DNA of 64,000 bases from Candidatus Omnitrophota bacterium (GTDB lineage Bacteria > Omnitrophota > Gorgyraeia > Zapsychrales > Fredricksoniimonadaceae). A program made the position numbers and the translations under genes. The stretch lies in the NCBI GenBank assembly GCA_037131245.1, contig JBAXRK010000001.1:24385-88384 (forward strand). Direction: 5' to 3'. The notes under the pieces were generated by a model. That model made no database searches, had not been told where the DNA came from, and worked only from the letters and a program-made list of their open reading frames with translations. Shown in pieces: positions 1-28,700 of this stretch. The stretch's first letter is position 1; each line of letters begins with the position of its first letter.

Positions 1-1745
1 GGATTAAAATCACGGGACTTCTTGATAAGGGCGAGCTTGTACGCCGCGCGGTCATTATAAAGAGCAGACAGTTCACGGACCACCATCAGGAATTGCCGGC
101 CGGTCTCCTGACGGGCACGGATGGAAGCCGCGTCATTATCGATACCAAAACCATCCACGCCAAAAAGCGTGCCCAACTTCTGCAGGAAGTCGGACAGGCC
201 GCCACGACGCGCCACGATCACAAAAGCGTGCAGGAGCGCCTGCTGGACATTCGCCAGCCCGCAGGGCTCATCGATCGAGAGCATGATACCGCCCACGCTG
301 CCTGAAGGGATCTGATCGCCGAGGTCAGCGTCAAAAGCCTTGATGAAGCGGAAGTTCGCCTTGAACTCTTCGCGCCCGGCCAACTCCTCAAGCTTTGCTT
401 CAACCCATTCGCCCACGATATCCAGTGCCTTGCCGGTGGCTTTGTCGCGCGCCACGTTCCCCAGGATCACCAGCTGAACGCGGGCGCCTTTGCCATCCAG
501 GTCGAGGCGCAGGAGCTGCTCAATAAGCGTCTCCCCGGTCTCTTCAGTCATCACCGTGAACAGGACATTCAAACCTTTCTGTTTCACGATACGGGTCACA
601 ATACCGAGAGTCAGATGGTTCGGGTTGGTATCATCAAGGCCAAGCTTTTTCTGCAGGGCGCGTTTGTTATGTTCCTTGAACAAAGCGGGGTCTTTATCAT
701 CCTGCGTAAAACCGTCGCGGGCCAGCGCCGAACGGGCGGCCGGCACGTAATTAGCCACGCGCAGGCCGCTATACACCGCGGCCAGTTTTTGCTCGTAAGA
801 CCTCAGCACGCCATCGAGGCCATAACCGCGCTCTTTGGTGAGCACTTCGGCCATGTTGCCCTTGCTCACAAAAACAACAGTATCGGAGTAGATGAAAGCG
901 CCTTTCATAAAATCATGCCGGCCGGCGATAGCGCCATCAGGGAAGGACGACCAGAATTCCAGGCCATTATTCCCGGTGGCATACTGCAGCTCAGGACGTA
1001 AATGGGTCAGCTTGAACAACTCCACCACACCCTGCGTCTTGCTCGTGCTATAGAAATTATGGATCGGGTCCTGATAGCCGCGATGGCGCGCCAGGACACC
1101 CAGGCCCAGGAGATGACGGACCAGTTGGCTATTGAGCGCGACTTTCATCTCTCCGGGGAAAATCCCCTGATATTCGAGGTTATGCGTGGTAAAGATCGAC
1201 GCCGGACGAGCACTGCTGAAAGCGTAAAGTTCACGCAGGAACACCGCGCCCAGGCCGGTCTGCCAATCATTGAAATGGTAAAGGTCGATCTTAACGTTGA
1301 GCCAGAACTTGAGCTCCACCGCCAGCCGCGGCAGCAGGACCGCTTCGAGATAGCCGCCAAGGGAATCCGGATGCGGCGCGGTGTAAAGATTGTTAAAGAG
1401 GTTGCCCGTCACATCAAGCGGCAGCAGGAAGGAACAACCCTGCTGTTCGAGGTACACCACCTTAAGCGGATAGCTGGCGTTGCCTGCCGGGACGGGGATG
1501 GTCATCAGGTCCACCGCGCCGCTCTGGGCGAAGAAAGCCTCGACCGAGTGGAAGCTCTTGAGCACGTCCGCCAGGAACAAAGGCTTCACCACCATGACCG
1601 CGTTACCAACCTCGGCCATCACCGGCGGCACATCGCCCATATACACATGCTGGCCGCCACCCGCGGTGGATTCACGCTTGAGCTCGCGGCCGGTCGACGG
1701 GATGATCACCGGGGATTCCATCGCGGCAAAGACCAAGGACAATTT
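1..1745 (-). other. Domain: glycogen/starch synthase (GlgA-type, GT5 GT-B)-like, running to the left edge of the window
   Basis: AGGGQHVYMGDVPPVMAEVGNAVMVVKPLF; IDLYHFNDWQTGLGAVFLRE; SIFTTHNLEYQGIFP; KGAFIYSDTVVFVSKGNMAEV; NKRALQKKLGLDD..LGIVTRIVKQKGLNVL; QLVILGN; GGIMLSIDEPCGLANVQQALLHAFVIVARRGGLSD. These are collinear with the GlgA motifs TGGLadV / hDWqt / T.HNl.yQG / sptya.E / nK..Lq..lGL..RL..QKG / q.v.LG.G / PS.fEPCGL.Q..a..yG..P.v...GGL.D. Confidence 0.8.
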
Positions 1746-10700: not shown

Positions 10701-13700
10701 CTCATCCATGGTCCAGATAGAATGAACATCGGCCATCGTAACAGCGAACATCCGTCCTTCATTAGCCGCCTTCTCCAGTGCCACATGTGTCTGGACGTCC
10801 TCGCTGACATCGCCTCTCGCAAGATTCTTGCCGTTGAACCTTTCCGTTAAACGGGTGATGATGCTTTCAAGCTGCGGCTCCCCGCGGGGTACGCCGGACT
10901 CGCCGACCAACCTGCGGAAAACACCCAATGTTATGCCGTTATACATCCCCTCATGAGCGCGGCACAACATGATCCCGGCGCGTTCAACATTGCCGATCTT
11001 CCGTTCACGCTTGAACGGCATATTCAGGAAACGCTCTACCGATCTCTCCTTAAGCTGATCCAAATATTCGGGATAATCATCGGTTACGGTCGTTCTGTTC
11101 TGGGGCTGGGGAAGAATATAAACCGCGTGCGGAGCGAAGATCGTCGCCGGCAAACATCCCATCTTCTCAACGTTATCCGATAACCAGAGAGCGGCTTCCG
11201 CCAATAGATCATTATCCCGGCTCTCAACCACAAAATAGGTGACCGGCAGATCCATCGTCACAATGCCGACCTTAAGATCAGGACGGTCGACCAGCCACTT
11301 CCGTGCGTGGCGCTCAATAGGATACTCCACATTATAAACATGAATATGCTGATGCTTCGCGTAACGGCCCGCCCCGAGATTTCCCCTCATTCCGGGAAAA
11401 TAGGTGTTGAAGATCCGCACCAGGGTCCTCATGGCCTCGAGATCGACACCTTCTTTATGTTCCTTGGCCACAATGAACATATTGTGCTCAAAGAACGGCT
11501 TCTCAGAAGCGAACAACCGGAACGGAACACCGAACATCTCCTGAAGATCAGCCAACATCAGCTCATCATGATTGCCCAGGATATCAATGCCGTAATTCTT
11601 AACGCAGAAAGGACATTTCCTGACTTCCGCAGGGGTCCTCGGATCAATGGGAGCGTAAGGCGTTTCCAATGCGGGGTTGATCTGTGCGATATAATCGCTA
11701 TTCTCAACATCCGAGGATGAATCAACACTACGGACCCTGATCTGCTCCGGCAGCCACAAAACTTTTCCCGATGCCACTAACTCGTCAAATTGTCTTAATA
11801 CACCCCTGTTAAAGTGATCGGGTTCGGTTTTCCCAGAAAGCAGGTCAACATAAGCCTGCCCGCCTCTGTTAAACCCGAACGTGTCGGAAACTTCGGCCAA
11901 CAGCAAGCGGGAAACAATGCCCTCTCCCAGATCAAGGGCCCGCCACTCTTTGACCTGTTCATATAACGCCGCGAACCGCTGCGGGGTCATGGGAGCTGTG
12001 ACCCTCGCCAGTGAAATGTGCAGCATCGACGCCTTGCGCCGTTCGTCCGCATAAACTTCTCCAAGCGCCTTCCTGACCTCAAAGATCGTTTCGCTATCAA
12101 CATGCCCCTCGGCAAACACCGTACCATCCGGCCCTAAATTGATCCCGCTGAAGCGATACTTGATCGACCTGTTCCCGATAGCCTCCAGAACCTTCTGGCG
12201 ATACGCCGCGGCGTATTTCGGATCCACACGCGGCGCATCCGCCTTAAGATCAGCCGTCGCCGTATCAAAGAACGGCAGGAAGAATGTGGTATGCAGGATC
12301 TCCCCCGGAGTATAGGTCAACTCCGGGAAACTGGCTTTTAACAGCGCCAGAACGCGGTCAAGCTGGCTGCGCGTCATTTCAGGGAACTCGGTCAGCGGCA
12401 CAATAGAGCTGATACAAAAAATGCCCTTGTTAGGCTGCATCGGCTTCGGCGCGCGCCCTTCAGCGACCATGTCGCCGGTGGCCTGCCAAACATTCTGATA
12501 TGCGCTCTCTAGTGTTTCGCGGGATGTGACAGGAATTCTTTTTACCTGAACGCTCGCCTTGACAAAAATGATCGACGCCAGATCGCGCCCGTCATCCGAA
12601 GCAAGAGCACTATCGCTTCCCGCTCTGGGCCGGGCAATAATGGTCGGCAAACCCACAACATGCTGCTGCGCATCGGCACTAGCCCCTAAAAGGACCGCCT
12701 CGGTCAAACCGCGCTCAACCGCTATGGCCGCCACATCCTTGACCATGGCCTCACCAGCCTTATCGTCTGCCCCGCTCCGTTTAAGCGTCATAAATACCAC
12801 ACGACCCTGGGCGTCCTTCCCAACGATAGAGATACCTGCTCTCATAAAGAACGGATCCCAATTGACCCCGTTAGGCCCGGTCGGAGGCTGCTCTTTCACA
12901 ACGCTACAACTCACATCAACCCCATTACGGACAAGCACAACACCGGCGACCGCAACACGTATATCGCTAATGTTTGTCTTAGAAATATTCTTCTCTACAA
13001 GAATGTCTTTGATCCCCGCAACCGGACCATCGACCACAAAGAATGAAAACGTACCTGTGAGAAGCTGAAGGGTTTCCTGCCTGATGCCGGGCGCGGTCTT
13101 CATCAGCAGCTGACCGTTACGAATAAGCATCGTATGCCCTTCCCAATAGTTCCCCTGATGTCCGTTGATAGCGAAGATCGCCCCGGTCTCTTTAACAAAA
13201 GCCCTAACGGTCTTACCGGGGAACGGCACAAATTCCTTCTTAAACCTGGCAGCTAATTCTTCCGTCTGAGCATATTTGGAGAAATCATAAGCGCGGCCTT
13301 TGTCTTCTATATAAACGTCAAATGCCTGGCCCGGATTAAAGACCACTTCACGTCCACTGACCGTACGACCAGCAGCATGGTAATCAATGCCTGTCACCTG
13401 CATACCGGCGATCGTTTCGCTGGCCGCAACAGTAAGCGCCGGAACGATCGTCTTATCCGCTAACTTTCCTCCGATGATGACCCGCAGTTTATTGACCGTG
13501 GCCGGAACATGGCTGATATCAAGATGGATCGTATGCGGGCCAACGGCAACATTCTCAACAAGGACTGGCATGACGTTGCCGGACTCATCAAGAAGCTCGA
13601 TCTTTAATAGATTGTCTTTCAGCGCTTTAAGGACCGCATCACGAGCGATGTTAAACAGGTATTCGGGGACAGGGATCTCGGAAAATTGCAGTTCAACCAC

Positions 13701-16700
13701 ATCGTTACGGCGCAACGGCGGCGCATTCGCGTCAGGCAATTTCTTCAGGGCTTCCTGGACAAACAGCTCTCCAGCTCCGAACGCGATCGCTTCTTTGTAC
13801 TCCTTGATCTGCTGCTTGATCGCGTCCACTGTCAGGGCGTTCATCCCGACCGCGGCTACGAGCTTTTCAGGCATGGCCAGCACACCGGCCACCTTGTTCT
13901 GGAAAATGCCGCCCGCCGGAATGATCACCAGTGAAGGATTGGCTTTGCGCAGCTCAGCGATCGAGCTGCCCTCGGCCTTCAGCGCTTCGGAAACCTTGCC
14001 CCAATGCTTGAGGACAACGCCGTCAACACCCGCCTGGACAGCCGAATTAATGGCTGTCAGGAATGTCGGCTGGGCGGCGGTGTCGATCTCGGCGATCATA
14101 ACCAGCGCGGGCAGTTCTTTACGCAACGCCAGCATCTCAGCCTGGGACGGAACAAAGTCGACTATGATCACAAAGCTCGCGCCTGCCGCGGCCGCGGCGC
14201 GGATATCCGCAAGACTGGCCGCGAAAAAGCCAACCGGCGCCGCGGCATTCTTCGCCCGAAGCGCCTTAAGCACATCCAGGCGGTCAACTGTCGGAATAAA
14301 TCCGGCAACAACCACCTCGTTCATCAAACTAATAATAAGCTCAGGCGACTGGCCAAAGTGGTTCTGCTTCTCTTTAAGTGTATGGCTGCCGACTTCGACG
14401 CGCTTGGCGTTAAACTCCGCCACAATGGCTTGTTTCTGTCCGACAATCTGCTGCGGCGTAACAACCCTGAACGCCACCGCATCAGCCGGAACAGGATCAA
14501 CATCAAAATGAATACTGGCAAAACGGATAGTGATATTGGCGGGATCGATCAGAATGGAGCTGCCGTTGGCACGCACTGCCTGCACAACCAATCGGCCTGA
14601 CCGCAGCGCGATACCGATCATTTCTTTAACAGTTTCCTGCGCAAAAACCGGCACACCGAACGAAGAGACCTCAAGGTCGGCCATGCCGGCAGGCCTGAAC
14701 GTTACCGCAGGAGGCGCCAAAGCTCGCGGCAAACGACTAAGGATACTCTCTCCCAACCGCTCCTCAGCGCTGGAAGCGGCAACAGCTTTCTTGTAAAAAT
14801 ATTCTTTGGCTTTCTCCGTAAGATTGCCGTTCACATCCTCAAGGGCCACAACAAAAGCCGGATCAAGCACATTCCATACTGCAGCGATAAGAATATCCCT
14901 GTTATTCGATGCCCGGGCGGCGCGAAGCTTTTCGCCAAAACTGTTGATGGTATTCTTTAAGACGGCTGACTTCGCGTTGTTAATGGCTTGCTGTTGCGCA
15001 TTCTTGTGCTTGATCTCAATAAAATCTAACAAAGCAACAGCCGCTTTGTCATCCTGGTTATCTTTTGAGTCAGAGATCGCCTGCAGCCAACCATGATGCT
15101 CAGCAACCATCCCGACCCTCAGCTGGCGGCCCGCGGCCGCTTTCATCGCCGCTTTTGCCGCGTCATTGGCTGCCGATAAGACCTGAACACGAACACTACG
15201 CAGCAAATTCAGTTTAGCCGGGACACTTATGATCGCCTGATAAGCATTAGCCTCTTTTGCGATGATCACATTTCTAGCCGTATCCGCGTTCGCTTTGGCC
15301 ACCGCGTCATACACCGCGACAGCTGTTTTCTCGTCGTTATTCTCACTCACATCCGACATCGCCTGCAACCAACCATGATGCTCGGCAATCAACCCGGCCC
15401 TCAACTGACGGCCCGCAGCCGCCTTGATCGCCGTCTTGGCCGCATCATTCGCCGCCAGAGCCACCTGAACACGAGCCTCGCGAATAATATTAACCTTCAC
15501 GACATCAGCAACGATCACAGCAATGGCATCCTTAGCGCCCTTATCAGCAACAACCTTCGCCGCATCAGCGTTCGCCTTGGCCACCGCTTCATACACCGCG
15601 ACTGCCACCTTCTCATCGTTATTCTCATTGACATCCGACATCGCCTGCAGCCAACCATGACGCTCGGCAACCAACCCGGCCCTCAACTGACGACCCGCAG
15701 CTACCTTGATCGCCATCTTCGCCGCATCATTCGCCGCCAGAGCCACCTGAACACGGGCCTCGCGAACGGCATTAACCTTCACAATATCCGCCACGATCAC
15801 AGCAATGGCATCTTTAGCGCCCTTATCAGCAATAACCTTCGCCGCATCAACGTTCGCCTTGGCCACCACTTCATACAGCGCGACAGCCGTCTTCTCGTCA
15901 TTATTCTCATTCACATCCGACATCGCCTGCAGCCACGCATGATGCTCAACAGCCATCCCGGCCCTCAACTGACGACCCGTGGCCACCTTGATCATCGTCT
16001 TGGCCGCATCATTCGCCGCCAGAGCCACCTGAACACGAGCCTCGCGAATAATATTAACCTTCACGACATCAGCAACGATCACAGCAATGGCATCCTTAGC
16101 GCCCTTATCAGCAACAACCTTCGCCGCATCAGCGTTCGCCTTGGCCACCGCTTCATACACCGCGACTGCCACCTTCTCATCGTTATTCTCATTGACATCC
16201 GACATCGCCTGCAGCCAACCATGACGCTCGGCAACCAACCCGGCCCTCAACTGACGACCCGCAGCTACCTTGATCGCCATCTTCGCCGCATCATTCGCCG
16301 CCAGAGCCACCTGAACACGGGCCTCGCGAACGGCATTAACCTTCACAATATCCGCCACGATCACAGCAATGGCATCTTTAGCGCCCTTATCAGCAATAAC
16401 CTTCGCCGCATCAACGTTCGCCTTGGCCACCACTTCATACAGCGCGACAGCCGTCTTCTCGTCATTATTCTCATTCACATCCGACATCGCCTGCAGCCAC
16501 GCATGATGCTCAACAGCCATCCCGGCCCTCAACTGACGACCCGTGGCCACCTTGATCATCGTCTTGGCCGCATCATTCGCCGCCAGCGCTACCTGAACAC
16601 GGGCAGCACGCACCGTATTGACGTTAACAACATCGCTCAGGATCACGGCCATGGCTGCTTTAGTATTACGCGCGCTTACTTCGCTGGCCTTCACCTCAAC

Positions 16701-19700
16701 ATGAGCCTTGACCGCATCAAGCAGACTGGCCACCGTCGAAACAACCTTCGGCATCTTGCGGCCATTCATAGTGATCATGGAACGACGATACGCAGAGATC
16801 GTATCAGCGCCGATCTTCTCTATAATGTCCCTCTTGATGCTGATCACGGAAACCGCCGGTAAAGCCTGCTGCGCGGCACGCAATGAACGGTACTCATTAA
16901 CGATCCTGTCAGCTGTCTGCGCAACAACTGAATCTAGCGTCTTGCGGGCATCAAGCTCCATAGCCCTGACCGCAGCATCCGCATCCATGGGCGCCACAAC
17001 AAGATCATGACCGGCCGGATCAACCGCCGCTCCGCCTTTCATCCACTCAACAAACGCAACCGCCTTGCCCCACAAACTAACAACCTTATAAACACTCCAC
17101 AACGCGACCGGCACTAACCAGACCAGATTAATGATCTTGAAAACAGTCATCGCCATGCCGCTAAGGCCCAGGATAAACGCGCTAACTGTCAAGGCATAGG
17201 TAACCAGGAAAGCGCCGAGCCCGACAACCAAAGCAATCTTGAACCCGGTCGTCCTCATAAACTTCGGGAGCAAATACGGATCACCCGTGAACTTTGCCCC
17301 CTCAACGCCTTTGGCGGGAATAAACTTGTAAACACCGTTATACAGATACTGCCGGTCTGAATGATGCAAGGACGCGTTCATATTACCCTGGTATCTCTTG
17401 AGCAGACCCTGAGTCCGGATAAGCTGCTGGATCTGATCCTGAACATTCACATCAAGAACATCTCCTTTTTCCTGAAGATCCTTGAGTTTTGTCGCAACCA
17501 CTTTAGCTAGTTTCCCGATATCATCCTTCACCATTAATTCATTGTTATCCAGAACCAATCCACCCATAAGGCCCTGCTCGGCGATATACTGCTGCAAGGC
17601 AAGGCGGAAATATTCCGTATCATTAATATCACCGACCTTCTTCTTAAGATCAGCCAGCAGAAGCTCATAGCTGTTCTTCTCTTCCGTCGGCTCCCACACA
17701 AAATATTCTTGGCTGTCACCGATCAAGAGCTTAATGGCTCGGTCGATCTTCCGGTACTCGCTCATGATCCGGCGGCTCTTGATCAGCTTCGTTCCGGCAA
17801 CAAACACCACGGCGGAAGCGGCCAGCAGAACGGAGACGACCGGGTAGAACCACAAGGCAACGACCGCTGTCAAAGTCAGAATAAGCTTGGCCACATTGGC
17901 CTTCTTATCGTTGCTCTTGAGCTCGTAATACCAATCCTTCGCCCCTCTCCACCAGGCATAAAGTGAATACAAGAGGACATCGACGATCTTAAGCCCCGCC
18001 GTTGCCACTTTGTTCCACGGCAACTTGCTATATTTATTATTCTCGTAGAATTTGCTGCCATACAAAACCCCGGGATTATAAACAGCCGGCCCGGCGATCC
18101 AGCTCACAACCTGGATGATATAAAAGCCAGCTGCCAGAAGAATGATCGGCTCCATAGGAATAAAGTACAGAATAAGCGGAAGCAAGGGAGCCGCCAATTT
18201 CACACCGAACCGGTCGGTCGGCACAACGCCCGGTTCTTCATAAAGCACTTTGTATGTGCGAGTGGCCTGCCACCCGGAACGGTCGGTCGGCGGGAATTTC
18301 GGCGTGCCGTGCAGCAATTCATCAAATATGGCTTTCACATAGTTCGGGATCAAGGACCCCATGAAGACGACCAGGCCAGGCTTCACGAACATGCGACGCA
18401 AAAGTTCAAGCAGACCGTAGGGTGAACCGTACAACTGGTTATAGTAATGGACCGCAGGAATGGTAATGGCATGCATAAAGAGGTAGCCGAAAGCAACCAT
18501 GATCGGTGCTAGCGGCAGTCCGTACCAGGAATCAACGTGAAAAACCATTAATGCGATAAAAAGAATGCTGGCAACCAAGCCGGGAAGTTTGCGCAGGAAG
18601 AAATGCGACAGGCCCAGGGTACCCAGTTTGATATGAACAGGACCGGGTGTCATCAAAGCGCGCTGCGCTTCCTTATCCATGAAGATCTCACCCACGTCGC
18701 CGCAATACTTATACTCAGGGACCTTGTGAGCCCCACGCATCCTGGTCTTATCCTGGATCATCTCGACAAATGAGCTATAGCGGATCTCGCCGCCTTCTGC
18801 CAGGATGCCTTCGCCCATGACCGAATCTTCCGCGGCGCGGCACAGCGGGCCGACACCGCCACGGCCAGAGCTAAAGTCACTTGAGTCGTAAAGTGCCGCC
18901 ATTTTGGCATTATGCGCCTCAGCCAGGCTCGCCACGGAATGACCGAAGAACACATCCAGGTCCATGGAATACTTGCCGTATGTCGTTAACGATCCAAGGA
19001 CATCGGTACCCATCTGAGCCGGATGCGTCCAGGTCGATTCCGCGTGGCCGCCGGCGCCGCTGGTAGGCGTCATCGTCTGAACGGTAGAGTACAGCGGGAA
19101 TAACTGTGCGGCTAAACTAGGATTTTGATCATACAAGGCAGTCACAAACGGCAAGAAATAGATCTCTTCGAACGGTATCTGGTTGGAAACGTCCTGGGCG
19201 ATCATATGGCGCGCCCCGATCATCATGGAGCCAAGCTCCATCCAGGCCGCGTCCTTGACCGGCATCAGAAAAGCACGGCCAGACGGATCAAGCAGGCGAA
19301 TATTCGGCACGCCCAAATCAGCATAAAGTTTAACCAGATCAGTATGCTTACCAGCGTCCGCACAGCCAAACGCCCCGGCCGGGATCACATTAAAAATGAA
19401 TTTGTCTGCCGCAAAACGAGCATAGGCCTCATCCACCTCTTGAATATATTTCTTCTCGTGGCTGCCTTCTGTGTATCCGCCTTCAGGTTCATTATTTTTA
19501 TACTGTTCATAGAGCGGATCTGGCAGGTAGTCCCGGGCGAACATTTGCATAACCTTCAGGTGACGCTTATTTTTTATAGCTAATCGCGTGATAGTATCAT
19601 CACGCGAAGTTATAAAACCAATCAGGTTCTTCTGTAAGTTATCTGTGCGGTCATAAGGTTTAAAGAATGTTGTAAAAAGCACATCGACCTGGCCTTTGGG

Positions 19701-22700
19701 CGCTTCCCAGAATATTTTAGCCTCGCCCTGAATGGAGGCAACCTTCAACTGGACCTCCTCTAAAGAATTGAAGGGCTTACCATTATTTTCCATCGCTGCC
19801 TTAACCCCTGTGAAGATCTTGTCAGCGTACGTCGCTACCGTTGCCGCAAGCGCGCCGGTCCGGAATTCAGGCATCGCGGCGGCCTCCCTAATGCGTTCCG
19901 CCAAGAGGCGCTTAATATCATCATCTGTCAATGTCTTTTGAGAGATCAGGGCGTAAGTATATTTAACATAAGCAGGGAACCGGCTCCCCAGAACATAATT
20001 GATCACGAATGGCAAAACGACCCGGACTAACTTCATAAAAGGCGGGAGATCTTTTATGCGATCCAGCTTACACTTTTCAACGAGGAAATTTTCCAATTCT
20101 TCGCGGGATGTCGCATTGTTAACCACATTGGGCAGGCACTCAACAACATCCTTCCATAGTCTTTCAAACGCCATGCCGGCCATAGTAGCCCAATACATGG
20201 TCCGCGGAATATCGGTGAAATGCTCATACGGGGTCAACCGGCCATCGGCTGTTTCAGGAATATCGCGATGATAAAACTTGTTCATGGCCTGCTTCAGACG
20301 ATGCATAGCCTCATGATTGATGCCCTCAAGGTCCTGAAGCGTAATGCCCTTCAAGGACTTCAGCTTGTTGTACTGCGCCTCGGAGATCGACTTGTAATCA
20401 TCCCTGGTCATGTCCTCAAGGAACTGCTCATAATACCTACGGGCCGCGCCCTTGTCGCCACCGGTAAAGTTAAACGAGAAATTGCGGACATGGCTTGTGT
20501 AAAGAACAGCGATGCGCAGGAGCCTGTAGATCGCATCCACGATCCACGGTGAAGCAAAGACCGCGCCTGTGATCCAGACGCCGGTAGCGATCGAGGCAAA
20601 ACCGCCGGATACCATCGTCACCGCTATAACTGTCAAGCCAAGGGCTATTGAAGTCCAGAAAACATATTTTCTACCTGAATTCAACGCGGCAACGAACATG
20701 CTGGCGAAGATCAAGACGACAACACCGTGGAGATGAAAAGAGGCTCCGAACAAGAGCGCCATTCCAACGCCAAACACGAACGCCGCGGCAGCTATCACTA
20801 ATTTTCCGGCTAAATGCCGCACGTATTGCCCCATACCGCCCATTTTCTGTTCGCCCAGCATCTTAAGCGACACATACAGATCCTCGATCGTACGGATCTG
20901 GTGTGTATTGATATCCAACGCCTTATCCTTCGCCACCCGATGCAATTGCAGATAGAATCCGGAAGAAGCGAAAAGAGCGCTGATCAGGATCGCCATGAAC
21001 AGCACGGGGATCGCAATAAGCCCTATAGAAACAGATCCGGTCGCCCCCAGCATGACCAACAGCTTCGGCAAAGACCAGAACATGGCCATCCAGGTCAGGA
21101 AACTGCCGACCCAAACTATATTGCGTAAAACCTTAGCCCAACTCTTTAAAGCGTTATTCATGTGCTCGATCGTCTTCTCATCGATGCCCAGAGAACGATT
21201 ACGGTCCTCAAGATAATTGGGCTTGGTTGCCAGATTCCAGACGAACTTCAGCACGCTGACATCTTCCGGAATGCTCCAAACTCGGCGGTCAAAGAACAAA
21301 GCAAAATAATTCCGGTACGCGCGGGTCAACTTGAGGTAATAGCTGGCCGGCTCGATCTTCTGCTCTTTCTGTTCAAGCTTGATCTGCGGAAGGATCTTGC
21401 TATCAACGAGCTCCTGAGTAAAAGCCACACGGAAAAGATGCATTTTATCATCTGAGAACATCGGCAATTTCATTGGTTTCGAGGCAGGCCATGCTGTTAA
21501 TTGCTCCATCCAAGCGTCGGCTCCTCCGATGGGCTGTAAACGGCGGTCCAATAATTGCAACCTTTCCTGCACATTGGCTAACCGCTGGTAGAACTCAGCA
21601 TCGGAAGGATCCCCCACGAAATCCAGTTCCGCCATCGCGGCCACCCGAACCTCCTCAATGCATTGCCTGGCCTTTATAAAATCATCGTGTTTCAAACGAA
21701 TATCTGTCTGATCCATCATCCTCAAGCTGATACGGTCGATCGTCGTATTGAGGATCATGCGAACATCAGGCACGGTCAGGCCCATGCCACGACGCAGATC
21801 GATCCCGCGCTTATACAGGCGGTCGAAATCGTCCGGCGTGAACTGGGGGCGGTTATTCGACCTCTTGGTCTTGATACCGCCACCGGTGTAACCCCAAACT
21901 GTATCTGATAAGATAGCGCCCCAGACCTGGTCCAGAGCAATGGCAACATCCCAGGCCTCAGCAACAACCCCTCTCTGTTTGCCCCGCATAACACTTCTGA
22001 CAAGCCTGGCCACAAAAGTCGGCCGGTTCACAAATACCCGCTGTTCAACCATCCGGCGAACAACATACTCTTCCAGAGAAATATACACCAGGCCGTCCTT
22101 GATCTTCTTGTGCTTGATCAAAACACCGGCATTCGGATCAGCAAATGTATCGCCGGCTTTCTGGTGCCTTAATTCCTGAATGCGTACACGGACATCATCA
22201 AGAATAGCCTCGCGCCTAGTCTGAACCTCATTGCGATGCATCGAGCGGGCGCCGATGATCTCCCCTAACGTGTTCGCCAGGTCAATATATTCAATCTTGT
22301 CAGAAGCTACGATCGACTTCAAAACTTCGCGGAATTTAGCGGAACTGATCGGACCGACACCTTGTTGATTGGCTTCGATCAGTTTGAGGATAATATTGAT
22401 CACTATACCCTTCAAAGCGGATGGTTCCGTTGAAGACTTCGGCTTGATCATGTTTAACAGGTAATCGGTTCCCGTAATAGGCATCACCAATGAAAGCCTT
22501 AAGGCGTCGATCTTCTTGAAATCCTCCGGCTCCAGAAGCTTTTGAACCTCCTTCAACCGTTCATCCACCATCTGCTTGGTAAAGAACTGATAATTATCAA
22601 AGATCGTGTTCAGCTCTGAAGCCGCAGCCCGCTCAATAGCCTTGATCATAAGGTCATGAGCAATAAAACCCTTGTTGTAAACCAGCTTGTTGTTCAGCCC

Positions 22701-25700
22701 GTCGCGAATACCGCCCACCAGTTCCTTAAGAACATTGAGAGTAAACCCGGGATATTCTTTGAACAGCATCGCCAATGTCCCGGACAGATCCTCGGGCATA
22801 CCCTTCGTGGCCTGCACGGCTTCCTCAGGAGTACGAGCATTTTCAATATTCGACAGAATGTTCAAGACTTCCTGCTTAAACAGCGCGGCATTCGCAGCAG
22901 GCGCCTCTTTAACGGGTGCGATCTTCTTCAGCAGGCCCACGCCGAAGAATCTTTTCATGGACTTCAGGCTGAACCAGCGCTTCGGATTAATGAACCCTAA
23001 GAAACCCAGAAGCGTAAGCGCTATCGTACCGATAACGGTAATCTCAATAACATCCTTCCTGTAATCCTTGATCGTTTTCAATTCCGGAAGGGCACGTCGA
23101 GCAACGGCTTTCTGCTCCTCAGTCAACGCCGCCCTCTGACTATTGCCAATGCCTGCTTCGCGAACAATATTGGCAACAATACTGTTTCTAAGGTCATCAC
23201 TGAGCAACACACTCTTAGGCATATACCAAGGCAGAAGATCCGCGCCCATTGTCTTGCCGATGAACCGTGAACCCTGAACATGAGCAAGGCGGCCATTGAT
23301 ATAGAGGCGATGCGGCACGCCGGCCCAATTCTCGTACCGCTGAGCCAGTTTCCCTGCTACGCCATCTTCATAATTTATTTCAAACACATAATACTGCCCG
23401 GGAGTCTCTGTCGGCTGCTGAATGTAATACGCCGATGGCCGAGCATCATTTACCAGCACGCCCTGCTTAAGGTTCTCTAGGCCCTTATGGCTAATGAACA
23501 TCCCGAAATAAGGCTCCTGCGACGGCGTCAAATAAACTTGTTTGTAATCCGTCACAGAGAAAGGATTCATCGCCTTTAACGCGTCTCTATAATCAAATGA
23601 GAAACTGGTGTGCTCATAGACGCGGTACGCCGAACCACCCCATGGATAATTTCCCTCATAGAGCGGATTCTCAGCCATCATCGGAATATTAAGGGTCATT
23701 GGCTGTAGATGCGTCAGCAATAACCCGTTCGCATCCTGACCGATGAACTCACTCTTCATGTTCGGGCCTTCCGCTGCCGCCACGTAGTTCGACAGGACAT
23801 CCTGGCCCTTTACATAATCAAAGATATACGAACCATTGCTCAGGTCCAGCGCCCCTAGGATCTTCTCCTCGGTCGTCATCAAACCCTGCTTTTCATCAGG
23901 GTAAACGCGCGAAACGAACAGGCGCGGATCGCCCGACGGAATGCCATTCGTACCCACCTTATCCTGCCACGAGAACGCCTTCTTCTGACGGCCTTGCGTG
24001 GAATCCACTTCCTTCTTCACTTCAAAGATCTTATTGCCGAAATTAACGCCCTTATTGCTCACCAGGGTGTTAAGCACGTCGTACAATCCCTGCAGGTCAC
24101 CCGACTTGGCTTTAATGTCATTGGCATGGCCGCGGATGATCCAGGAGGGTATCTCGCGGCTATCCATGATCTGTTTGATCTGGGCGGCAACATCTCGCGA
24201 CTCCATCCCGCGGATGCGCTCGCCGTATCCAAAAACCTGCCAATCGCCGTTGGTCGATGTCATATAAGCGATGGACGAATGGCTGGCAATACCCTGGCCC
24301 TTGAGCTCATCAAGATAATGATTGGCTTTCACCACGTCGCCAACGCGCTGAACAAAAACCCCATTCTCCAGGCGCCCGAAAGCCTGAGCGATCACATTGC
24401 CCTTTAGGTCCTTGACCTCGCGCACCGCGAATTCGACCATACGGCCGCGATACGGGAAGCTGACCTCGCGGTCGATCGTGATCCGCCCGTTATGGTAGAG
24501 CCGGCCGATATCCACCAGGGTCATCGGATAGGTGATCGTTGAACCATCAGCGTAGCGCAAATGGCTGGTCATGATCTTCAACAAACGGTTGCCGTTATCG
24601 TCAAGGACCCAAAGCTCTGAGCCATCCGCCAGGTCAAGCATTTTAGGCAGGTCATTATAAAAATTGACCACTTCAAGAGAGCGATGACGGTCGACGGAAG
24701 AAAGCACTCTTTGGGACTTATCCTTGATCTCAGTGGTATTCACACCCGTGAAATGATCAGCCTTGTCCGCCTTGTTACGGACATCCCCCGCCAGGCGGTA
24801 CACCTGGGCCAGCACCACATCGGCGGCGTTCGTGTTCGCCGGGCCAAACGCGGTACGCAGCGCATCAGCGTAAGCCTTATAATCAAAATTGGTGGTCGCG
24901 CTCGAAACAGGCGCCTTCAAGGCCTTCTCTATATCCCTCACCATCGCCTCGACATCCACCACGGCCGGCTGGCGGGCGACCACAGCATTGATCGCGGCGA
25001 GCGTATCCTGCGGCACATCCAAGAGCGTCAGGCCTTTGGTCACAGAGCTGGAGAGAACAACATTCGTGTTATCCGCCATGGTCGTGGTCACATGCGTGGG
25101 CACCAGCGGGCCAAAGCCGTTATAATCAAACGTAACCGCGCGATCATTCTCCGCCTGATCCGTCGCCCTCTCGCCGATAAAGGGCAGGATGACACGTGAT
25201 TCTTTCACCGTCGCGCCGCTGAAAATATTGCTGAACGTGATCGTGTACCCCGACAGCTCGCGCTTGAAACCATTCATCCGGTAGGTCGGCTCCAGCGGCA
25301 GGTCGGAAGACATCACCAGCGTTTGTGCCGCCGCGTTCCCGATAAATTGATGTTGGCTCAGGTCAACCAGATATTTCTGGGCGCTAATGTTCGTATTCCC
25401 GATGATCTGCTGGTCGATGGTGCTAAACCACGCTACGCCGTTGGTCCTGGTCGACGGCAGAATGCTCAGCCAACTATTCGCCTTGCCTTCCGCGCCCAGG
25501 AGCACAATATCGGTGGCCTTGGCCGGCAGGTTCTTATAATTCACCTCAAAAGCCGCCAGCGTGGTCCAATGCGGGCGCAACTTGTACATATCCGGATAAA
25601 CCACCATGCGATGCGTCGCCTGCCACTGCGCCAGGTCCGCGACCGCGGCGGGATCGGTGAATTTGAACATCCCCTCACCCGTAGCCGCATTCGGCCAACC

Positions 25701-28700
25701 CACCACGCCCTGGGCATTGCGCAACAGAAACGACTCCTGCCCCTGAGCATCCAGGACACGTTCGTAATAAAGTTCCATGGTCTTGATCTTCTGCACCGCT
25801 TCCATCTGGGTGGCAAACACCGTGCTGCCATCAGCCTGCGGCAGCGCGAACATCGATAAGCGCTCGCTCGCGATCTCAAGGCCTTCCACGCCAAACTCGA
25901 AAACCTGCGGATAAGCGCTGGTATTATGCACGCCATCAAAGAGCAGGACCAGCGTGCGGCCATTACCCAGCGGCGTGTCTTTGCCGCTGATCCTGACCGT
26001 ATACAGCGGGTTGTTCGCCGTCGGTTTATTGATCCCGTTCGCCCCTAACTCAAGATCCGTCAACGTGGCCAACGGCCGCGCCCAGCGGGACAATTCCCGG
26101 GCCGACTTCTTGTCCAGCGTGGCCGGCAGGCGATCCAAAGAATACACCACCGCAGCGCCGCGCAACTGCGCCAGGCGCTCAGCCACCGCGCCCGGGCCGG
26201 AAATAAATTTAAGGCCGGTATTCCTCACTGTCATGGAAGACAGCGTTACCGGGCCCAGGCCGTTCACACCCTGCGGCACCATCACGCCGGGCATCTGCTC
26301 TTCAAAGACCCTGAACGGCGAGCCCACCGCGATCCCCGGCAGCGGGCCAACCTTCACATGACGATTCTTGAAACCGATATCAACCAGGATGTTATTACCA
26401 CTCTTCCACTGCTGATCGAGCACCTTGAGGTCAACCAGCGTATTGCCCCAAACCGGGAATTCCAGGCCCGCGCCATTTTGTAAGCTTTCGTACTTACCAT
26501 TGAACGCGCCGATGAGCGACACTTTCACGTCATATTTGGGAAGGGCGAACTCAAGTTCACTGCCGGCTTTCACGCCCTGCTGGGCATCGGTCGCCGTCAC
26601 GTCATACATCGCGTTGCCCTTGAGCGTCGTCTCAACCACATCCTTCACCGACAACAAGCCAACCGGCGTCTGGAAACCCGCGCCGGCGTACAGATAATCT
26701 CTCTTGGGCGCGTAGGCCGAGGTGTCCATCTCAGGACGGAGGAACGCGCGTACCAGGCGGCCGCTGGCTTCATCTTTCCAGCCCAGGCCCAGCTCGGTGT
26801 TAAGCAATTCTTCACGGACAAAAAGTTCTTTGGGCACCCACACGCTGTTACCCTGATCATCCCAATGCTCGATCTTAAAGGCCCCCTTCGCGTCCGCCAT
26901 CACCGCGTTGGCTTTAAGATCAGCAAAGAAGCCATTCGGCAGGTCGCGATGCAGATCAAGCGAAGCACCCTTATTGATATTGCCCGCCGGAGACCCCGCC
27001 CCGACCGGCACATCCATATAGCCCAGGTACGTCAGGTGCCAATCTTTCGACAGGTCAGCGGTACCGGCATCAAAAAGCACCAGGCGCGTGGTCTTCTCGG
27101 CCTGATTGACCGTCTTGCCATTCTTATCGGTAGACTGCTTGTTCATATACTCACGGTCAACCGCGAGCACCACAATGTTCTGGGCTTTCGCGCCCGACCA
27201 CTGCAGGCCAACACCATAACGCGTCGCGGTCGGCGTCGCGGTGGAAGATTCGATATTGCTGATGAACAAGTCCAGCGACCAAACGCTGCGATCGCCGAAG
27301 AACTGTTTAAGAGAAGAAGCGATCGTGGTCTTGCTCTGGAACTTGTCCTGTACCAGCAGGCCCATGGCCCCTTCCGGATTGCGCGACTCGATGATGGTGG
27401 TCAATTCTTTATCAGTAAAGAGCGGCAGCCCCAGGCCCATCTGCTCAAGAGCTTCACCCGCCTGGCGGATCTCAGCGGCCTGGTCATAAAGAGCACGCTT
27501 CTTGGCATGGACCTCGCGCTGCAGGTCATTGATCTGCTGCTGCAGGTCGGCGAGCGCGCCGGGGCCTTCTTCCAGGCGGCGCAGGGCTTCGATCGAAGCC
27601 GCGATCTCCCGGGCCATCTTGGCGTTATACGCCTTACCGGCTTTAACCTTGTCGGTCACTTCTTTGCCCCAATCCTCGGCCTTGACCAGGGCGGCCTGTT
27701 TATCGACGATCAAGCCTTCGGTCGAGATGATCGCGCCCTGCATTAAAGCGATGTTATTCAAACAAATATTCTGCTCAGCCACATTCCCGTCAATGACCGC
27801 CTGGGCGTACTGGTCCTGGAACTCTTTAAGGACGTTTTGACGTGTGATCAATAATGTATTGGCCTCATCGAGATTCCGCTGGGCATAGGCCACACCCGTT
27901 ATTGCGTCCTGATGCTGCCACTCCAGCACATCAGCGCGCAAAGCCTGAGGATTACTGCCCTGCGCCAAAGCCAGGCGGGCATTGAGCTGCTCCAGGTTAG
28001 CCTGAGCATATTCAAGGTTCACGCGCACAAAAGGATCGGCCTGATTACCGGCGGTAAGCTTGTCAATATCCGCCTGAGTCGCCGCGATCTCTTTATTTAG
28101 ATCGGTAATGACCTGCGCTTCAAAGACCCGGTCGCGTTCCATGTAATACTGCTGGGCGAGCTTGACCCGGGCGCCATTACGCACATCAGCCTGACGGCGC
28201 GACCATTCGCCATAGATCTTCGTCCGAAGTTCGGCTTCCTGCGACAACAGGCTATCCTCATGCGCCTGACGGCCCAGCTGCAGCACCTGTTTCAAATACG
28301 CTTCCAACGCGGCCGAACGCTGATCGAGCACCGCGGCCGAAACAACCGGCTTCATATACGTGCCTTTAAGTGAAGACGGATCAAAAACCTCTTCCTGGCC
28401 CATTGCCACACCACCATTGGCTTCCACCTGCTCACGGCTGAGCGCCCTGAGCCTGCCATCGGCCCCGACCTGGGAACCGAACGCCACACCCTTCGGGTCA
28501 GGATTGACGCGCTGAACCATCGCCGGGATCATGCGGCCATCCGCCGCCGCGACGTTAACATCCGTGTGGTACAACAGGACCGAGCGGGCATCGAACGTCA
28601 CAGGGTCTTTCCTGCCGGAAAGCGGGACAGAAATATTCAGGCCGGTGACTTCTTTGCCCGTATCGCGCAAATGCTGGTACTGCGCGCCCGAGAGGAAAAG

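What the first reader, a model, noticed from the sequence alone, without database searches (positions are those of the whole stretch)
17790..21115. Second, apparently degenerate copy of the synthase-like core
The TM-core-TM layout is the same as copy 1 and collinear with it (offset about 28.3 kb). The motifs are KFIFNV..LYADLGVPNIRLLDP, IGARHMIAQD and GRGGVG..RAAEDSVMGEGILAEGGEIRY. However, the DxD position reads DPS and no QxxRW-like motif is obvious. This could be a catalytically dead paralog retained as a channel or scaffold, or a sub-functionalised partner of copy 1.
Basis: partly seen in the sequence, partly recalled or inferred. Interest (0 to 1): 0.55.

Follow-up and report, generated by a model that had tools for sequence, protein, structure and literature searches.

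The report
Second glucan-synthase-like module, probably active

Summary
The whole window is one minus-strand reading frame of at least 21,332 codons. Its Pfam content (M23 peptidase, HEAT, GT9, radical SAM, PPDK, GT5) matches published Omnitrophota giant proteins.

The finding (nt 17790-21116, aa 14295-15403) is a TM bundle, a soluble core and a second TM bundle, as described. It lies collinear with copy 1 (aa 4860-5900) at an offset of about 9,430 aa (28.3 kb).

Direct pairwise similarity of the two cores is marginal. A full HMMER search found 80 relatives; the ten whose sources were looked up are partial giant proteins from Omnitrophota MAGs (one labelled Planctomycetota). These give each copy its own orthologue clade. 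Profile-profile comparison of the clades gives E=6.6e-39. The joint family profile hits yeast FKS1 (GT48) at E=3e-25 and BcsA at 4e-8. An AlphaFold model of the copy-2 core (pLDDT 70) matches only membrane processive synthases.

"Degenerate" is not supported. Copy 2 keeps every family-invariant residue (equivalents of FKS1 K1082, D1102, E1173, YG, E1221/D1222, K1261). The true site reads D-V-S, and active FKS1 reads D-A-N there. The core is the best conserved part of the region in an orthologous giant gene.

Best reading: a sub-functionalised, probably active second synthase-translocase. Activity is untested.

The parts
3..63998 (-). Single open reading frame of 21,332 codons that runs off both ends of the window (giant protein). 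aa i corresponds to nt 63998-3(i-1), reading downwards.
   Evidence: no stop in minus frame 2. Pfam content (M23, HEAT, GT9, radical SAM+SPASM, PPDK_N+PEP-utilizers, GT5).
17790..21116 (-). Copy 2: complete TM-GT-TM synthase-like module, aa 14295-15403 (the finding).
20586..21071 (-). Copy 2 N-terminal transmembrane bundle (aa 14310-14471, about 4-5 helices).
   Evidence: Hydropathy scan. Conserved in orthologues P0006, P0007, P0022 and P0038.
19452..20585 (-). Copy 2 N-half of the soluble region (aa 14472-14849). Includes the motif EAMHRLKQAMNKFYHRDIPE (aa 14563-14582, nt 20253-20312), which resembles FKS1 EAERRISFFAQSLSTPIPE.
   Evidence: hhalign of the N-halves: copy-2 clade vs copy-1 clade E=1.3e-8; copy-1 clade vs GT48 N-half E=8e-8. 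R14567 and Y14576 are invariant in the copy-2 clade.
18597..19451 (-). Copy 2 GT-A catalytic core (aa 14850-15134): strand KFIFNV, strand IRLL followed by D14904, K14915, strand HMIAQ followed by D14936-V-S, E14987, Y-G-K 15007-15009, finger helix starting at E15057-D15058, interface helix with K15097 and E15104.
   Evidence: AF2 model with pLDDT 70.4 and alternating beta/alpha elements. Foldseek. Residue mapping.
19185..19193 (-). DxD-equivalent site, reads D14936-V-S14938 (FKS1 D1102-A-N1104; copy 1 D-A-D).
   Evidence: The same D-x-S is present in orthologues P0006, P0007 and L001.
18825..18830 (-). E15057-D15058, equivalent to FKS1 E1221-D1222 and the Asp of the BcsA TED motif. Invariant in all 29 family members.
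   Evidence: PMC10499315 for the role in FKS1 and BcsA.
18279..18296 (-). F15235-P-P-T-D-R15240. My own comparison by eye with the BcsA gating-loop motif FxVTxK (from memory) and with the FKS1 'YISTGRG' stretch that is aligned here.
   Evidence: F386 invariant in A4. FPPTxR identical in P0006, P0007 and L001. Aligned to FKS1 'arYIstgrGfatsR'. Assigning it as the gating loop is inference.
17790..18596 (-). Copy 2 C-terminal transmembrane bundle (aa 15135-15403), the putative translocation channel. Ends with the conserved AGPAVYNP, which aligns with FKS1 APFVFNP.
   Evidence: (family profile aligns through FKS1 residue 1493). 42.6% identity to L001.
46299..49421 (-). Copy 1: paralogous TM-GT-TM module (aa 4860-5900), with D-A-D-H-H, AED, RGK, YKW...E....R and KFISSTGKG.
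52449..53474 (-). Upstream paralogous block of copy 1 (aa 3509-3850). Its partner is at nt 24579-25514.
   Evidence: phmmer self-scan, E=4e-28.
24579..25514 (-). Upstream paralogous block of copy 2 (aa 12829-13140).
43002..43358 (-). Downstream paralogous block of copy 1 (aa 6881-6999). Its partner is at nt 14418-14774.
   Evidence: phmmer self-scan, E=3e-27.
14418..14774 (-). Downstream paralogous block of copy 2 (aa 16409-16527).

Best explanation
Copy 2 is the second of two anciently duplicated, membrane-embedded processive glycosyltransferase ('synthase-translocase') modules within one giant Omnitrophota-type protein.

Shown:
- It is homologous to copy 1 over essentially the whole module.
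- The family is closest to GT48 (fungal FKS1 beta-1,3-glucan synthase), and next to GT2 cellulose, hyaluronan and chitin synthases.
- The predicted fold is a GT-A domain packed on a helical TM bundle.
- All family-invariant polar residues are kept.

Inferred mechanism, by analogy with FKS1 and BcsA:
- The cytosolic GT-A domain binds a nucleotide sugar through K14915 and D14936.
- D15058, at the start of the finger helix ('AED'), acts as the catalytic base on the acceptor hydroxyl.
- E14987, K15009, K15097 and E15104 hold the acceptor or nascent chain.
- The FPPTDR loop closes over the donor.
- The growing polysaccharide leaves through the channel formed by the flanking TM helices.

Copy 2 has D-V-S where copy 1 has D-A-D-H, and Q/K where copy 1 has K/W. 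It is therefore most likely sub-functionalised: a different donor, linkage or metal dependence, possibly metal-independent like FKS1 with its DAN motif. It is not likely to be dead.
For: Homology of the two copies:
- Bridging proteins hit both copies at matching coordinates (P0033 at 121 and 37 bits, P0054 at 45 and 45 bits).
- The orthologue locus L001 hits copy 1 directly at E=5e-8.
- hhalign of the two clades gives E=6.6e-39 for the C-half and 1.3e-8 for the N-half.
- Paralogous blocks flank both copies in the same order.

Superfamily assignment:
- The family profile A4 hits FKS1 (7xe4) at E=3e-25, BcsA at 4e-8 and E. coli BcsA at 1e-4.
- Eight of 29 members hit Pfam PF02364, and five hit Glyco_trans_2_3.
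- Family member P0062 hits FKS1 at E=5e-8.
- hhalign of the copy-2 clade against {FKS1 fragment + P0062 + P0064} gives E=1.6e-12.

Fold:
- The AF2 model has pLDDT 70.4 and pTM 0.73.
- All 50 Foldseek hits listed are membrane processive synthases. BcsA scores E=9e-7 with TM 0.50. FKS1 scores E=1.2e-4 with TM 0.49, with the lowest rmsd and highest identity.

Retention of function:
- A4-invariant columns K66, D87, Y158, G159, E208, D209 and G220, and near-invariant E138, K248 and E255, are all present in copy 2. They map to FKS1 K1082, D1102, Y1193/G1194, E1221/D1222, E1173, K1261 and E1268.
- Mutations at K1082, D1102/N1104, K1172/E1173, H1195, N1220/E1221 and K1261 disrupt Fks1 function (PMC10499315).
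- The second DxD position varies across the family (D, S, N, I, T, H, V) and is N in active, metal-independent FKS1 (PMC12715860).
- Copy 2 has its own clade of orthologues (P0006 at 662 bits, P0007, P0022, L001).
- Against L001, the GT core is 52.5% identical and the C-terminal TM bundle 42.6%, while the flanks are 28-32%. All key residues are identical.
Against: - No enzymology exists for any family member, and donor, product and topology are all inferred.
- Copy 2 itself hits no Pfam family. The copy-2 clade profile alone finds nothing in the PDB. It relates to FKS1 alone only at P=6.7e-4, so the GT48 link is largely transitive through copy-1-type and intermediate sequences.
- Two FKS1 functional positions differ: K1246 is Q and K1172 is A. 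The Arg equivalent to FKS1 R1273 is K in the window and E in the orthologues.
- The AF2 model is of moderate confidence, from 29 sequences. Coordinates could not be inspected, so active-site geometry was not checked.
- The full-module model failed (pLDDT 45).
- The positive-inside topology could not be resolved with the crude hydropathy scan.
Confidence: 0.68

Rival explanations
1. Copy 2 is a catalytically dead pseudo-enzyme, kept as a translocation channel, scaffold or regulatory partner for copy 1.
For: - The second Asp of the DxD-equivalent is Ser, whereas the copy-1 clade keeps D-x-D-H.
- The FKS1 K1246 equivalent is Gln and the K1172 equivalent is Ala. The Arg corresponding to FKS1 R1273 is not conserved in the copy-2 clade.
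- There is no Pfam or PDB hit for copy 2 or its clade alone.
- Copy 2 is further from FKS1 than copy 1 (hhalign P=6.7e-4 versus 8.8e-9).
Against: - Every polar residue that is invariant across the 29-member family is retained, including the catalytic ED pair and the donor-binding K and D.
- FKS1 is active with D-A-N and without metal (PMC12715860).
- The K1246 position is variable across the family (K, Q, C, G, W), and the copy-2 clade has a conserved Lys two residues on.
- The catalytic core is the most conserved segment of the region between orthologous giant genes, more so than the TM bundle that a pure channel would need.
- Copy 2 shares with FKS1 an RGG motif ('SGRGGVG' vs 'TRGGVSK') and a T-x-R-G gating-type motif that copy 1 lacks.
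Confidence: 0.2
2. Copy 2 is an active but non-processive GT-A transferase. It would add a single sugar to a lipid, protein or existing glycan, in the manner of GT2/GT21 enzymes, rather than polymerise and export a polymer.
For: - Some family members give weak hits to Glyco_transf_21 and Glyco_trans_2_3.
- There is no QxxRW motif.
- Product and acceptor are unknown.
Against: - The family profile aligns with FKS1 through the catalytic core, the interface helices and the post-GT transmembrane helices up to residue 1493.
- The strongest Foldseek alignments (BcsA, HAS, FKS1, CesA; TMq 0.42-0.54) cover 430-550 columns of the 476-residue model, including its TM helices, and are all to processive synthase-translocases. 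Alignments to chitin synthases are poorer (TMq 0.31-0.37).
- A gating-loop-like motif is conserved.
Confidence: 0.1
3. The resemblance between the two regions, and to synthases, is chance similarity of hydrophobic or low-complexity sequence.
For: The direct pairwise comparison is weak.
Against: Profile-profile E=6.6e-39 between the clades. Family profile against FKS1 E=3e-25. Flanking paralogous blocks in the same order. Foldseek probability 1.00 to synthases.
Confidence: 0.01

Closest known systems
GT48 beta-1,3-glucan synthase catalytic subunit (S. cerevisiae Fks1/Gsc2, PDB 7xe4, 8jzn, 9wzv; Pfam PF02364 Glucan_synthase)
   Same: - A GT-A domain inserted between TM bundles.
- Collinear motifs: KF-strand; (Y)xDL...I..LD; G..K; strand + D-x-[N/S]; (K)E..[FW]; YG[HK]; RGG; ED + finger helix; GG.I; K...G.GE; T.R.G loop; F.NP at the end of the aligned TM region.
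- Best sequence-profile hit of the family, at E=3e-25.
- A non-DxD site (D-V-S against D-A-N).
   Different: - Bacterial, and embedded as an internal module of a protein of more than 21,000 aa. It is not a stand-alone ~1,900-aa eukaryotic protein.
- No Fks1 N-terminal accessory domain or Rho1 interface was detected.
- Equivalents of K1172, K1246 and R1248 are A, Q and K.
- Copy 2 alone does not reach the Pfam threshold.
- The product is unknown.
GT2 membrane-integrated processive synthases: bacterial cellulose synthase BcsA (4hg6/4p00), Chlorella virus and Xenopus hyaluronan synthases, chitin synthases, plant CesA
   Same: - Top Foldseek matches: BcsA at E=9e-7 with TM 0.50-0.54, and HAS with TM ~0.5.
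- The family profile hits BcsA at E=4e-8.
- Shared D,D,D logic, an ED/TED finger helix, interface helices, a gating-loop-like F..T.[KR] motif and a TM channel.
   Different: - No QxxRW motif, and no DxD in copy 2.
- No PilZ, c-di-GMP or other known regulatory domain next to the module.
- Sequence similarity is lower than to FKS1 (36 against 92 bits).
Copy 1 of the same giant protein (aa 4860-5900) and its orthologue clade (P0001-P0005, P0008 and others)
   Same: Same TM-GT-TM layout and the same order of motifs. Homologous over N-half and C-half. Part of one ancient ~3,500-aa segmental duplication.
   Different: - Only 16-22% identity.
- Copy 1 has D-A-D-H-H, RGK and E....R. Copy 2 has Q-D-V-S-N, IQDK and E....K, plus an RGG loop and an extra ~25-aa insertion before it.
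- The two fall in separate clades, each with orthologues in other metagenomes.
Omnitrophota giant proteins ('Archaeovorin' and 'multi-enzyme metabolic' classes; bioRxiv 10.1101/2023.11.21.568195 and 10.64898/2026.06.07.730766)
   Same: An ORF of at least 21,332 aa with many TM segments. It carries HEAT, GT5, radical SAM and PPDK domains, as those papers list. The ten homologues whose sources were looked up come from Omnitrophota MAGs, one of them labelled Planctomycetota.
   Different: Neither paper's held text mentions glucan-synthase, GT48 or cellulose-synthase-like modules. The supplements of the 2023 paper were not available.

Membership tests
GT48 (Pfam PF02364 Glucan_synthase; Fks1/callose synthase) | Scores above the Pfam PF02364 gathering threshold | tested here: not met
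   Copy 2 has no Pfam hit. At the E<=0.01 reporting threshold, 8 of 29 aligned family members hit PF02364. P0062 scores 86.7 bits and P0064 50.5 bits against a cut-off of 37.2.
GT48 (Pfam PF02364 Glucan_synthase; Fks1/callose synthase) | Significant sequence-profile similarity to experimentally characterised Fks1 | tested here: inconclusive
   The family profile containing copy 2 hits FKS1 at E=3e-25. The copy-2 clade against {FKS1 + P0062 + P0064} gives E=1.6e-12. The copy-2 clade against FKS1 alone gives only P=6.7e-4, and finds nothing in the PDB search.
GT48 (Pfam PF02364 Glucan_synthase; Fks1/callose synthase) | Fks1 active-site residues (K1082, D1102, N1104, E1173, H1195, E1221, D1222, K1246, R1248, K1261) | tested here: inconclusive
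   Kept: K14915, D14936, E14987, E15057, D15058, K15097. Changed: N1104 to S, H1195 to K (K throughout the family), K1246 to Q, R1248 to K, K1172 to A (residue list from PMC10499315).
GT48 (Pfam PF02364 Glucan_synthase; Fks1/callose synthase) | Makes beta-1,3-glucan from UDP-glucose | not testable with these tools
   Needs enzymology and linkage analysis.
GT2 processive membrane synthases (BcsA/CesA/HAS/Chs) | GT-A fold fused to a TM channel, with structural similarity to solved members | tested here: met
   AF2 model pLDDT 70.4. Foldseek: BcsA E=9e-7 with TM 0.50-0.54, HAS, Chs, CesA, all at probability 1.00.
GT2 processive membrane synthases (BcsA/CesA/HAS/Chs) | D, DxD, (T)ED, QxxRW signature | tested here: not met
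   An acidic residue follows strand 2 (D14904; E in orthologues). The DxD site reads D-V-S. ED is present. The QxxRW position reads K-Y-C-G-D-V-G-E.
GT2 processive membrane synthases (BcsA/CesA/HAS/Chs) | Pfam Glyco_trans_2_3 / Glyco_tranf_2 hit | tested here: not met
   None for copy 2. Five of 29 family members hit Glyco_trans_2_3.
Paralogue of copy 1 (same module family within this protein) | Statistically supported homology and collinear position | tested here: met
   hhalign of the clades: E=6.6e-39 (C-half) and 1.3e-8 (N-half). Bridging sequences. Flanking paralogous blocks.
Omnitrophota giant protein | ORF above 10,000 aa, many TM segments, characteristic domain set, relatives in Omnitrophota MAGs | tested here: met
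   papers. The source organism of the window itself was not found.

The most novel reading that the evidence does not exclude
Omnitrophota giant proteins carry a previously undescribed bacterial radiation of Fks1-like (GT48-like) synthase-translocase modules. There are at least 80 clusters at 50% identity, and the family is closer in sequence to eukaryotic beta-1,3-glucan synthase than to bacterial cellulose synthase. In this protein two anciently diverged modules sit in one polypeptide: one of DxD type and one of D-x-S type. They would make two different polymers, or alternate in building one heteropolymer, exported at the site of the giant protein. If the clade proves to be sister to eukaryotic GT48, it would also bear on where the eukaryotic glucan and callose synthases came from.
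Probability: 0.3. Interest if true: 0.75.

Novelty: new variant of a known kind. Interest (0 to 1): 0.55.

Why it matters
To my knowledge, GT48 glucan synthases are treated as eukaryotic enzymes and antifungal targets; this rests on memory and was not checked against CAZy. A large bacterial family that is closer to Fks1 than to BcsA is therefore of interest. Most of it is invisible to Pfam. Here it is fused into proteins of more than 20,000 aa.

It gives three things:
- A concrete, testable biochemical function for two ~1,000-aa unannotated stretches of Omnitrophota giant proteins: polysaccharide synthesis and export, in addition to the cell-wall degradation proposed so far.
- A natural pair of paralogues (DxD type against D-x-S type) for studying metal dependence and linkage specificity in this fold.
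- Bacterial outgroup sequences for the origin of GT48.

For the finding as written, the practical result is a correction. The second copy is not a relic.

Tried and rejected
- The ORF listing did not show the gene because it runs off both ends of the window. A six-frame scan revealed it.
- BLASTP of the ORF against itself, whole and in chunks, did not link the two cores. Single-sequence hhalign and shuffled Smith-Waterman were marginal.
- All three homologous-protein searches (copy 2, copy 1, family alignment A4) returned nothing. The same collection does hold strong relatives, as the full HMMER search and the cluster look-up showed. I treat this as a limit of the word index, not as absence.
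- phmmer of copy 1 and copy 2 against PDB sequences gave nothing meaningful. The copy-2-clade profile also gave nothing.
- Genome and metagenome scans with copy 2 alone found nothing. An exact 54-mer was absent from GTDB representatives. The A3 alignment was too diverse for a locus scan.
- AF2 of the whole 1,109-aa module with 9 sequences failed (pLDDT 45).
- Rejected: a eukaryotic gene with introns, my first impression from the fragmented plus-strand ORFs and the GT48 motifs. The minus strand is one uninterrupted frame with bacterial domain content.
- Rejected: 'DPS' as the DxD site.
- Rejected: copy 1's 'QAMRW' as a true QxxRW. It lies 12 residues before the ED pair, at the position of the Fks1 RGG loop, not in the interface helix after it.
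- dN/dS between the window and L001 was not attempted, because synonymous sites would be saturated at 30-50% amino-acid identity.

Full report
**1. What is at the coordinates**

The plus-strand ORF lists around the finding are fragmentary. A six-frame scan shows why. That frame is open across the entire window, nt 3-63998, for 21,332 codons with no stop, and it runs off both ends.

Pfam on the whole translation finds:
- Peptidase_M23 near the N-terminal end;
- HEAT repeats;
- a GT9 domain;
- radical SAM plus SPASM;
- PPDK_N plus PEP-utilizers;
- a GT5 starch-synthase domain.

Pfam finds nothing in either 'synthase-like' region.

This domain set, together with 58 hydrophobic segments, matches published descriptions of Omnitrophota giant proteins (bioRxiv 10.1101/2023.11.21.568195; bioRxiv 10.64898/2026.06.07.730766). 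I number residues in the window ORF so that aa i begins at nt 63998-3(i-1). The finding is aa 14295-15403. 'Copy 1' is about aa 4860-5900.

**2. Checking the observation**

The TM-core-TM layout is real in both copies.
- Copy 2: TMs at 14310-14471, soluble part at 14472-15134, TMs at 15135-15400.
- Copy 1: TMs at 4872-5015, soluble part at 5016-5720, TMs at 5721-5877.
- The offset is about 9,430 aa, or 28.3 kb.

Direct similarity of the two cores is weak.
- BLASTP self-comparisons miss it.
- Single-sequence hhalign gives P=0.036.
- Smith-Waterman against locally shuffled sequence gives p~0.09 for whole cores and ~0.008 for the C-terminal halves.

Context supports paralogy. A phmmer self-scan finds clearly homologous blocks in the same order on both sides:
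- aa 3509-3850 with 12829-13140 (E=4e-28);
- aa 6577-6653 with 15704-15781 (E=1e-6);
- aa 6881-6999 with 16409-16527 (E=3e-27).

Both modules therefore sit inside one ancient duplication of about 3,500 aa.

**3. Relatives**

The word-indexed protein search returned nothing for either copy. So did locus scans with copy 2 and PDB sequence searches.

A full HMMER search of 1.84 billion cluster representatives, using a profile of the two aligned cores (A2), found 80 proteins. Twenty-five of them scored E<1e-30, and most are fragments of very long proteins. I looked up the sources of ten. All are partial proteins on short contigs of Candidatus Omnitrophota MAGs, one of them labelled Planctomycetota.

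Local phmmer splits the hits into two groups.
- A copy-1 clade: P0001-P0005, P0008 and others. P0002 scores 759 bits over the whole module.
- A copy-2 clade: P0006 at 662 bits in four pieces covering aa 14297-15368, then P0007, P0022, P0038, and more distantly P0039, P0042, P0046, P0056 and P0065.

Several proteins hit both copies at matching coordinates. P0033 scores 121 and 37 bits, P0054 scores 45 and 45, and P0051 scores 28 and 31.

A rough neighbour-joining tree, without support values, places window copy 2 with P0006, P0007 and L001. It places copy 1 with P0001-P0004. The duplication therefore predates the divergence of these lineages.

**4.

Profile-profile comparison of the copy-2 clade (A3, 9 sequences) against a copy-1 clade alignment (19 sequences) gives probability 100% and E=6.6e-39. 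It covers 487 columns, aligning aa 14786-15312 with aa 5313-5885. The N-terminal halves align at E=1.3e-8. Homology therefore covers essentially the whole module.

Comparison with GT48:
- P0062 and P0064, both from Omnitrophota, exceed the Pfam Glucan_synthase threshold.
- P0062 hits yeast FKS1 at E=5e-8 and BcsA at 2e-4.
- The copy-2 clade against {FKS1 fragment, P0062, P0064} gives E=1.6e-12. The copy-1 clade gives 1e-21.
- A 29-sequence family alignment headed by copy 2 (A4) hits FKS1 and GSC2 in the PDB at E=3e-25. The match covers FKS1 residues 1075-1124 and 1144-1493, which is the catalytic core plus the following TM helices. The same alignment hits BcsA at 4e-8 and E. coli BcsA at 1e-4.
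- Eight of the 29 members hit PF02364, and five hit Glyco_trans_2_3.

One caveat applies. The copy-2 clade on its own reaches FKS1 only at P=6.7e-4, against 8.8e-9 for the copy-1 clade, and finds nothing in the PDB. The GT48 assignment of copy 2 is therefore mostly transitive.

**5. Structure**

AF2 on the whole 1,109-aa module with 9 sequences failed (pLDDT 45).

AF2 on aa 14850-15325 with the 29-sequence alignment gave pLDDT 70.4 and pTM 0.73. The model shows:
- alternating strands and helices;
- a helix starting exactly at E15057-D15058;
- a helical bundle after the core.

Foldseek against the PDB gives 37 hits at E<=0.001, and all 50 hits listed are membrane-embedded processive synthases. 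They include:
- BcsA (E=9e-7, TM 0.50-0.54);
- Chlorella virus and Xenopus hyaluronan synthases;
- chitin synthases;
- FKS1 (E=1.2e-4, TM 0.49, lowest rmsd of 6.1-6.6 Å and highest identity of 15%);
- plant CesA;
- cyclic beta-1,2-glucan synthase.

I could not read the coordinates, so active-site geometry was not inspected.

**6. Is copy 2 degenerate?**

The evidence says no, for five reasons.

(a) Family-invariant residues are kept. The invariant columns of A4 are K66, D87, Y158, G159, E208, D209, G220 and F386. The near-invariant ones are E138, K248 and E255. Copy 2 has all of them.

Through the alignments, copy 2 maps to FKS1 as follows:
- K14915 = K1082
- D14936 = D1102
- E14987 = E1173
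- Y15007-G15008 = Y1193-G1194
- E15057-D15058 = E1221-D1222
- K15097 = K1261
- E15104 = E1268

Zhao et al. list these among the Fks1 active-site residues. They show loss of function for mutants at K1082, D1102/N1104, K1172/E1173, H1195, N1220/E1221, K1246/R1248 and K1261 (PMC10499315).

By eye it lines up with FKS1 'IAYLDEE', as 'YADLGVPNIRLLDPS' against 'YPDLQIAYLDEE'. This is my own comparison. The hhalign alignment places this stretch differently.

The DxD-equivalent is D14936-V-S14938, at the end of 'IGARHMIAQD'. Across the family this second position is D, S, N, I, T, H or V. Active Fks1 has D-A-N there and is metal-independent (PMC12715860).

(c) Copy 2 shares with Fks1 an RGG loop ('SGRGGVG' against 'TRGGVSK') and a T-x-R-G motif in the loop I read as the gating loop ('FPPTDRSG' against 'YISTGRGF'). 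Copy 1 lacks both.

(d) Real differences exist. The K1246 equivalent is Q, with a conserved K two residues on. The K1172 equivalent is A. The Arg corresponding to R1273 is K in the window and E in the orthologues.

(e) Conservation is highest in the core. A metagenome scan with a three-sequence copy-2 alignment (A5) found L001, contig Ga0181520_10000469 of 89.8 kb.
- The entire 21.4 kb held is one ORF of 7,123 aa.
- It is collinear with window aa 13088-17146, and it also hits copy 1 directly at E=5e-8.
- Against L001 the flanks are 28-32% identical. The N-terminal TM bundle is 38.5%, the GT core 52.5% and the C-terminal TM bundle 42.6%.
- All mapped residues are identical, including D-x-S, Q/K and FPPTxR.

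**7. Interpretation**

Shown: copy 2 is a conserved, full-length paralogue of copy 1 in the GT48/GT2 membrane synthase superfamily, with the catalytic signature of its own family intact.

Inferred:
- the GT domain faces the cytoplasm;
- it uses a nucleotide sugar, with D15058 as the base;
- it extrudes a polysaccharide through the TM bundle;
- the D-V-S and Q/K changes reflect a different donor, linkage or metal requirement from copy 1.

The pseudo-enzyme reading remains possible, at about 0.2. A non-processive transferase is less likely, at about 0.1. Chance similarity is excluded.

**8. Novelty**

The two papers on Omnitrophota giant genes in the held library do not mention glucan-synthase, GT48 or cellulose-synthase-like modules. 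The supplements of the first paper were not available. Literature searches for bacterial GT48 found nothing relevant. That GT48 is regarded as essentially eukaryotic is my own knowledge. I did not check it against CAZy.

I rate this a new variant of a known kind. It is a bacterial Fks1-like synthase-translocase family, mostly below Pfam detection, present twice in one giant polypeptide.

Noticed in passing
window 3-63998, minus strand: The entire 64-kb window is one uninterrupted reading frame (21,332 codons) that continues beyond both ends. The ORF listing cannot show it for that reason.
   Followed up: yes
window 15287-16604 (aa ~15799-16237; protein-level repeats span aa 15780-16345): A tandem repeat of 282 bp (94 aa), 4.7 copies at 88% DNA identity, lies within the giant ORF just C-terminal to copy 2. 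It looks like a recent in-frame expansion. It also explains the long spurious plus-strand ORF at 15375-16862.
   Followed up: partly
window 52449-53474 / 24579-25514 and 43002-43358 / 14418-14774: Paralogous blocks of unknown function (no Pfam hit) flank both synthase modules in the same order. They define an ancient segmental duplication of about 3,500 aa inside the gene.
   Followed up: partly
window 5337-8324 (aa 18559-19554): A second internal duplication: aa 18559-19014 resembles aa 19074-19554 (E down to 6e-32). It covers the radical SAM / SPASM region, so there are probably two radical-SAM-like units in tandem.
   Followed up: no
window 47142-47156 (aa 5615-5619, copy 1): Copy 1's 'QAMRW' is conserved in its subclade as (A/L)(M/L)RWSEG. 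It lies 12 residues before the ED pair, at the position of the Fks1 RGG loop. It is therefore not the GT2 QxxRW motif, despite looking like one.
   Followed up: partly
window 42900-44950 region (aa 6350-6741) and aa 7767-8125: Further short internal repeats downstream of copy 1 (aa 6350-6468 with 6632-6741, E~1e-15; aa 7797-7828 with 8094-8125). This mirrors the repeat array downstream of copy 2.
   Followed up: no
window 63606-63878 (aa 41-131): A Peptidase_M23 domain (E=8e-13) lies at the N-terminal end of the window. Murein-degrading and polysaccharide-synthesising domains therefore sit in the same polypeptide.
   Followed up: no
plus strand, frame 2, e.g. 53523-56384 (954 codons): There are many long antisense open frames opposite the giant gene. 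They are probably a by-product of its codon composition, not genes.
   Followed up: no
L001 1-21371 (Ga0181520_10000469, contig of 89.8 kb): Another giant gene: the whole 21.4 kb held is one ORF (7,123 aa). It is collinear with window aa 13088-17146 at 28-52% identity. The rest of the contig, which might hold a copy-1-type module, was not available.
   Followed up: partly
P0006 (MHC4114465.1) aa 3107-3591: In the closest copy-2 orthologue, a GT5 starch-synthase domain plus a GT1 domain follow the synthase module by only ~500 aa. In the window the GT5 domain is ~5,400 aa further on. The association with GT5 may be functional.
   Followed up: no
tools: All three word-indexed homologue searches returned zero hits. 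Yet relatives scoring up to 800 bits in local phmmer exist in the same collection. 'No homologue' from that tool is not reliable for these proteins.
   Followed up: yes
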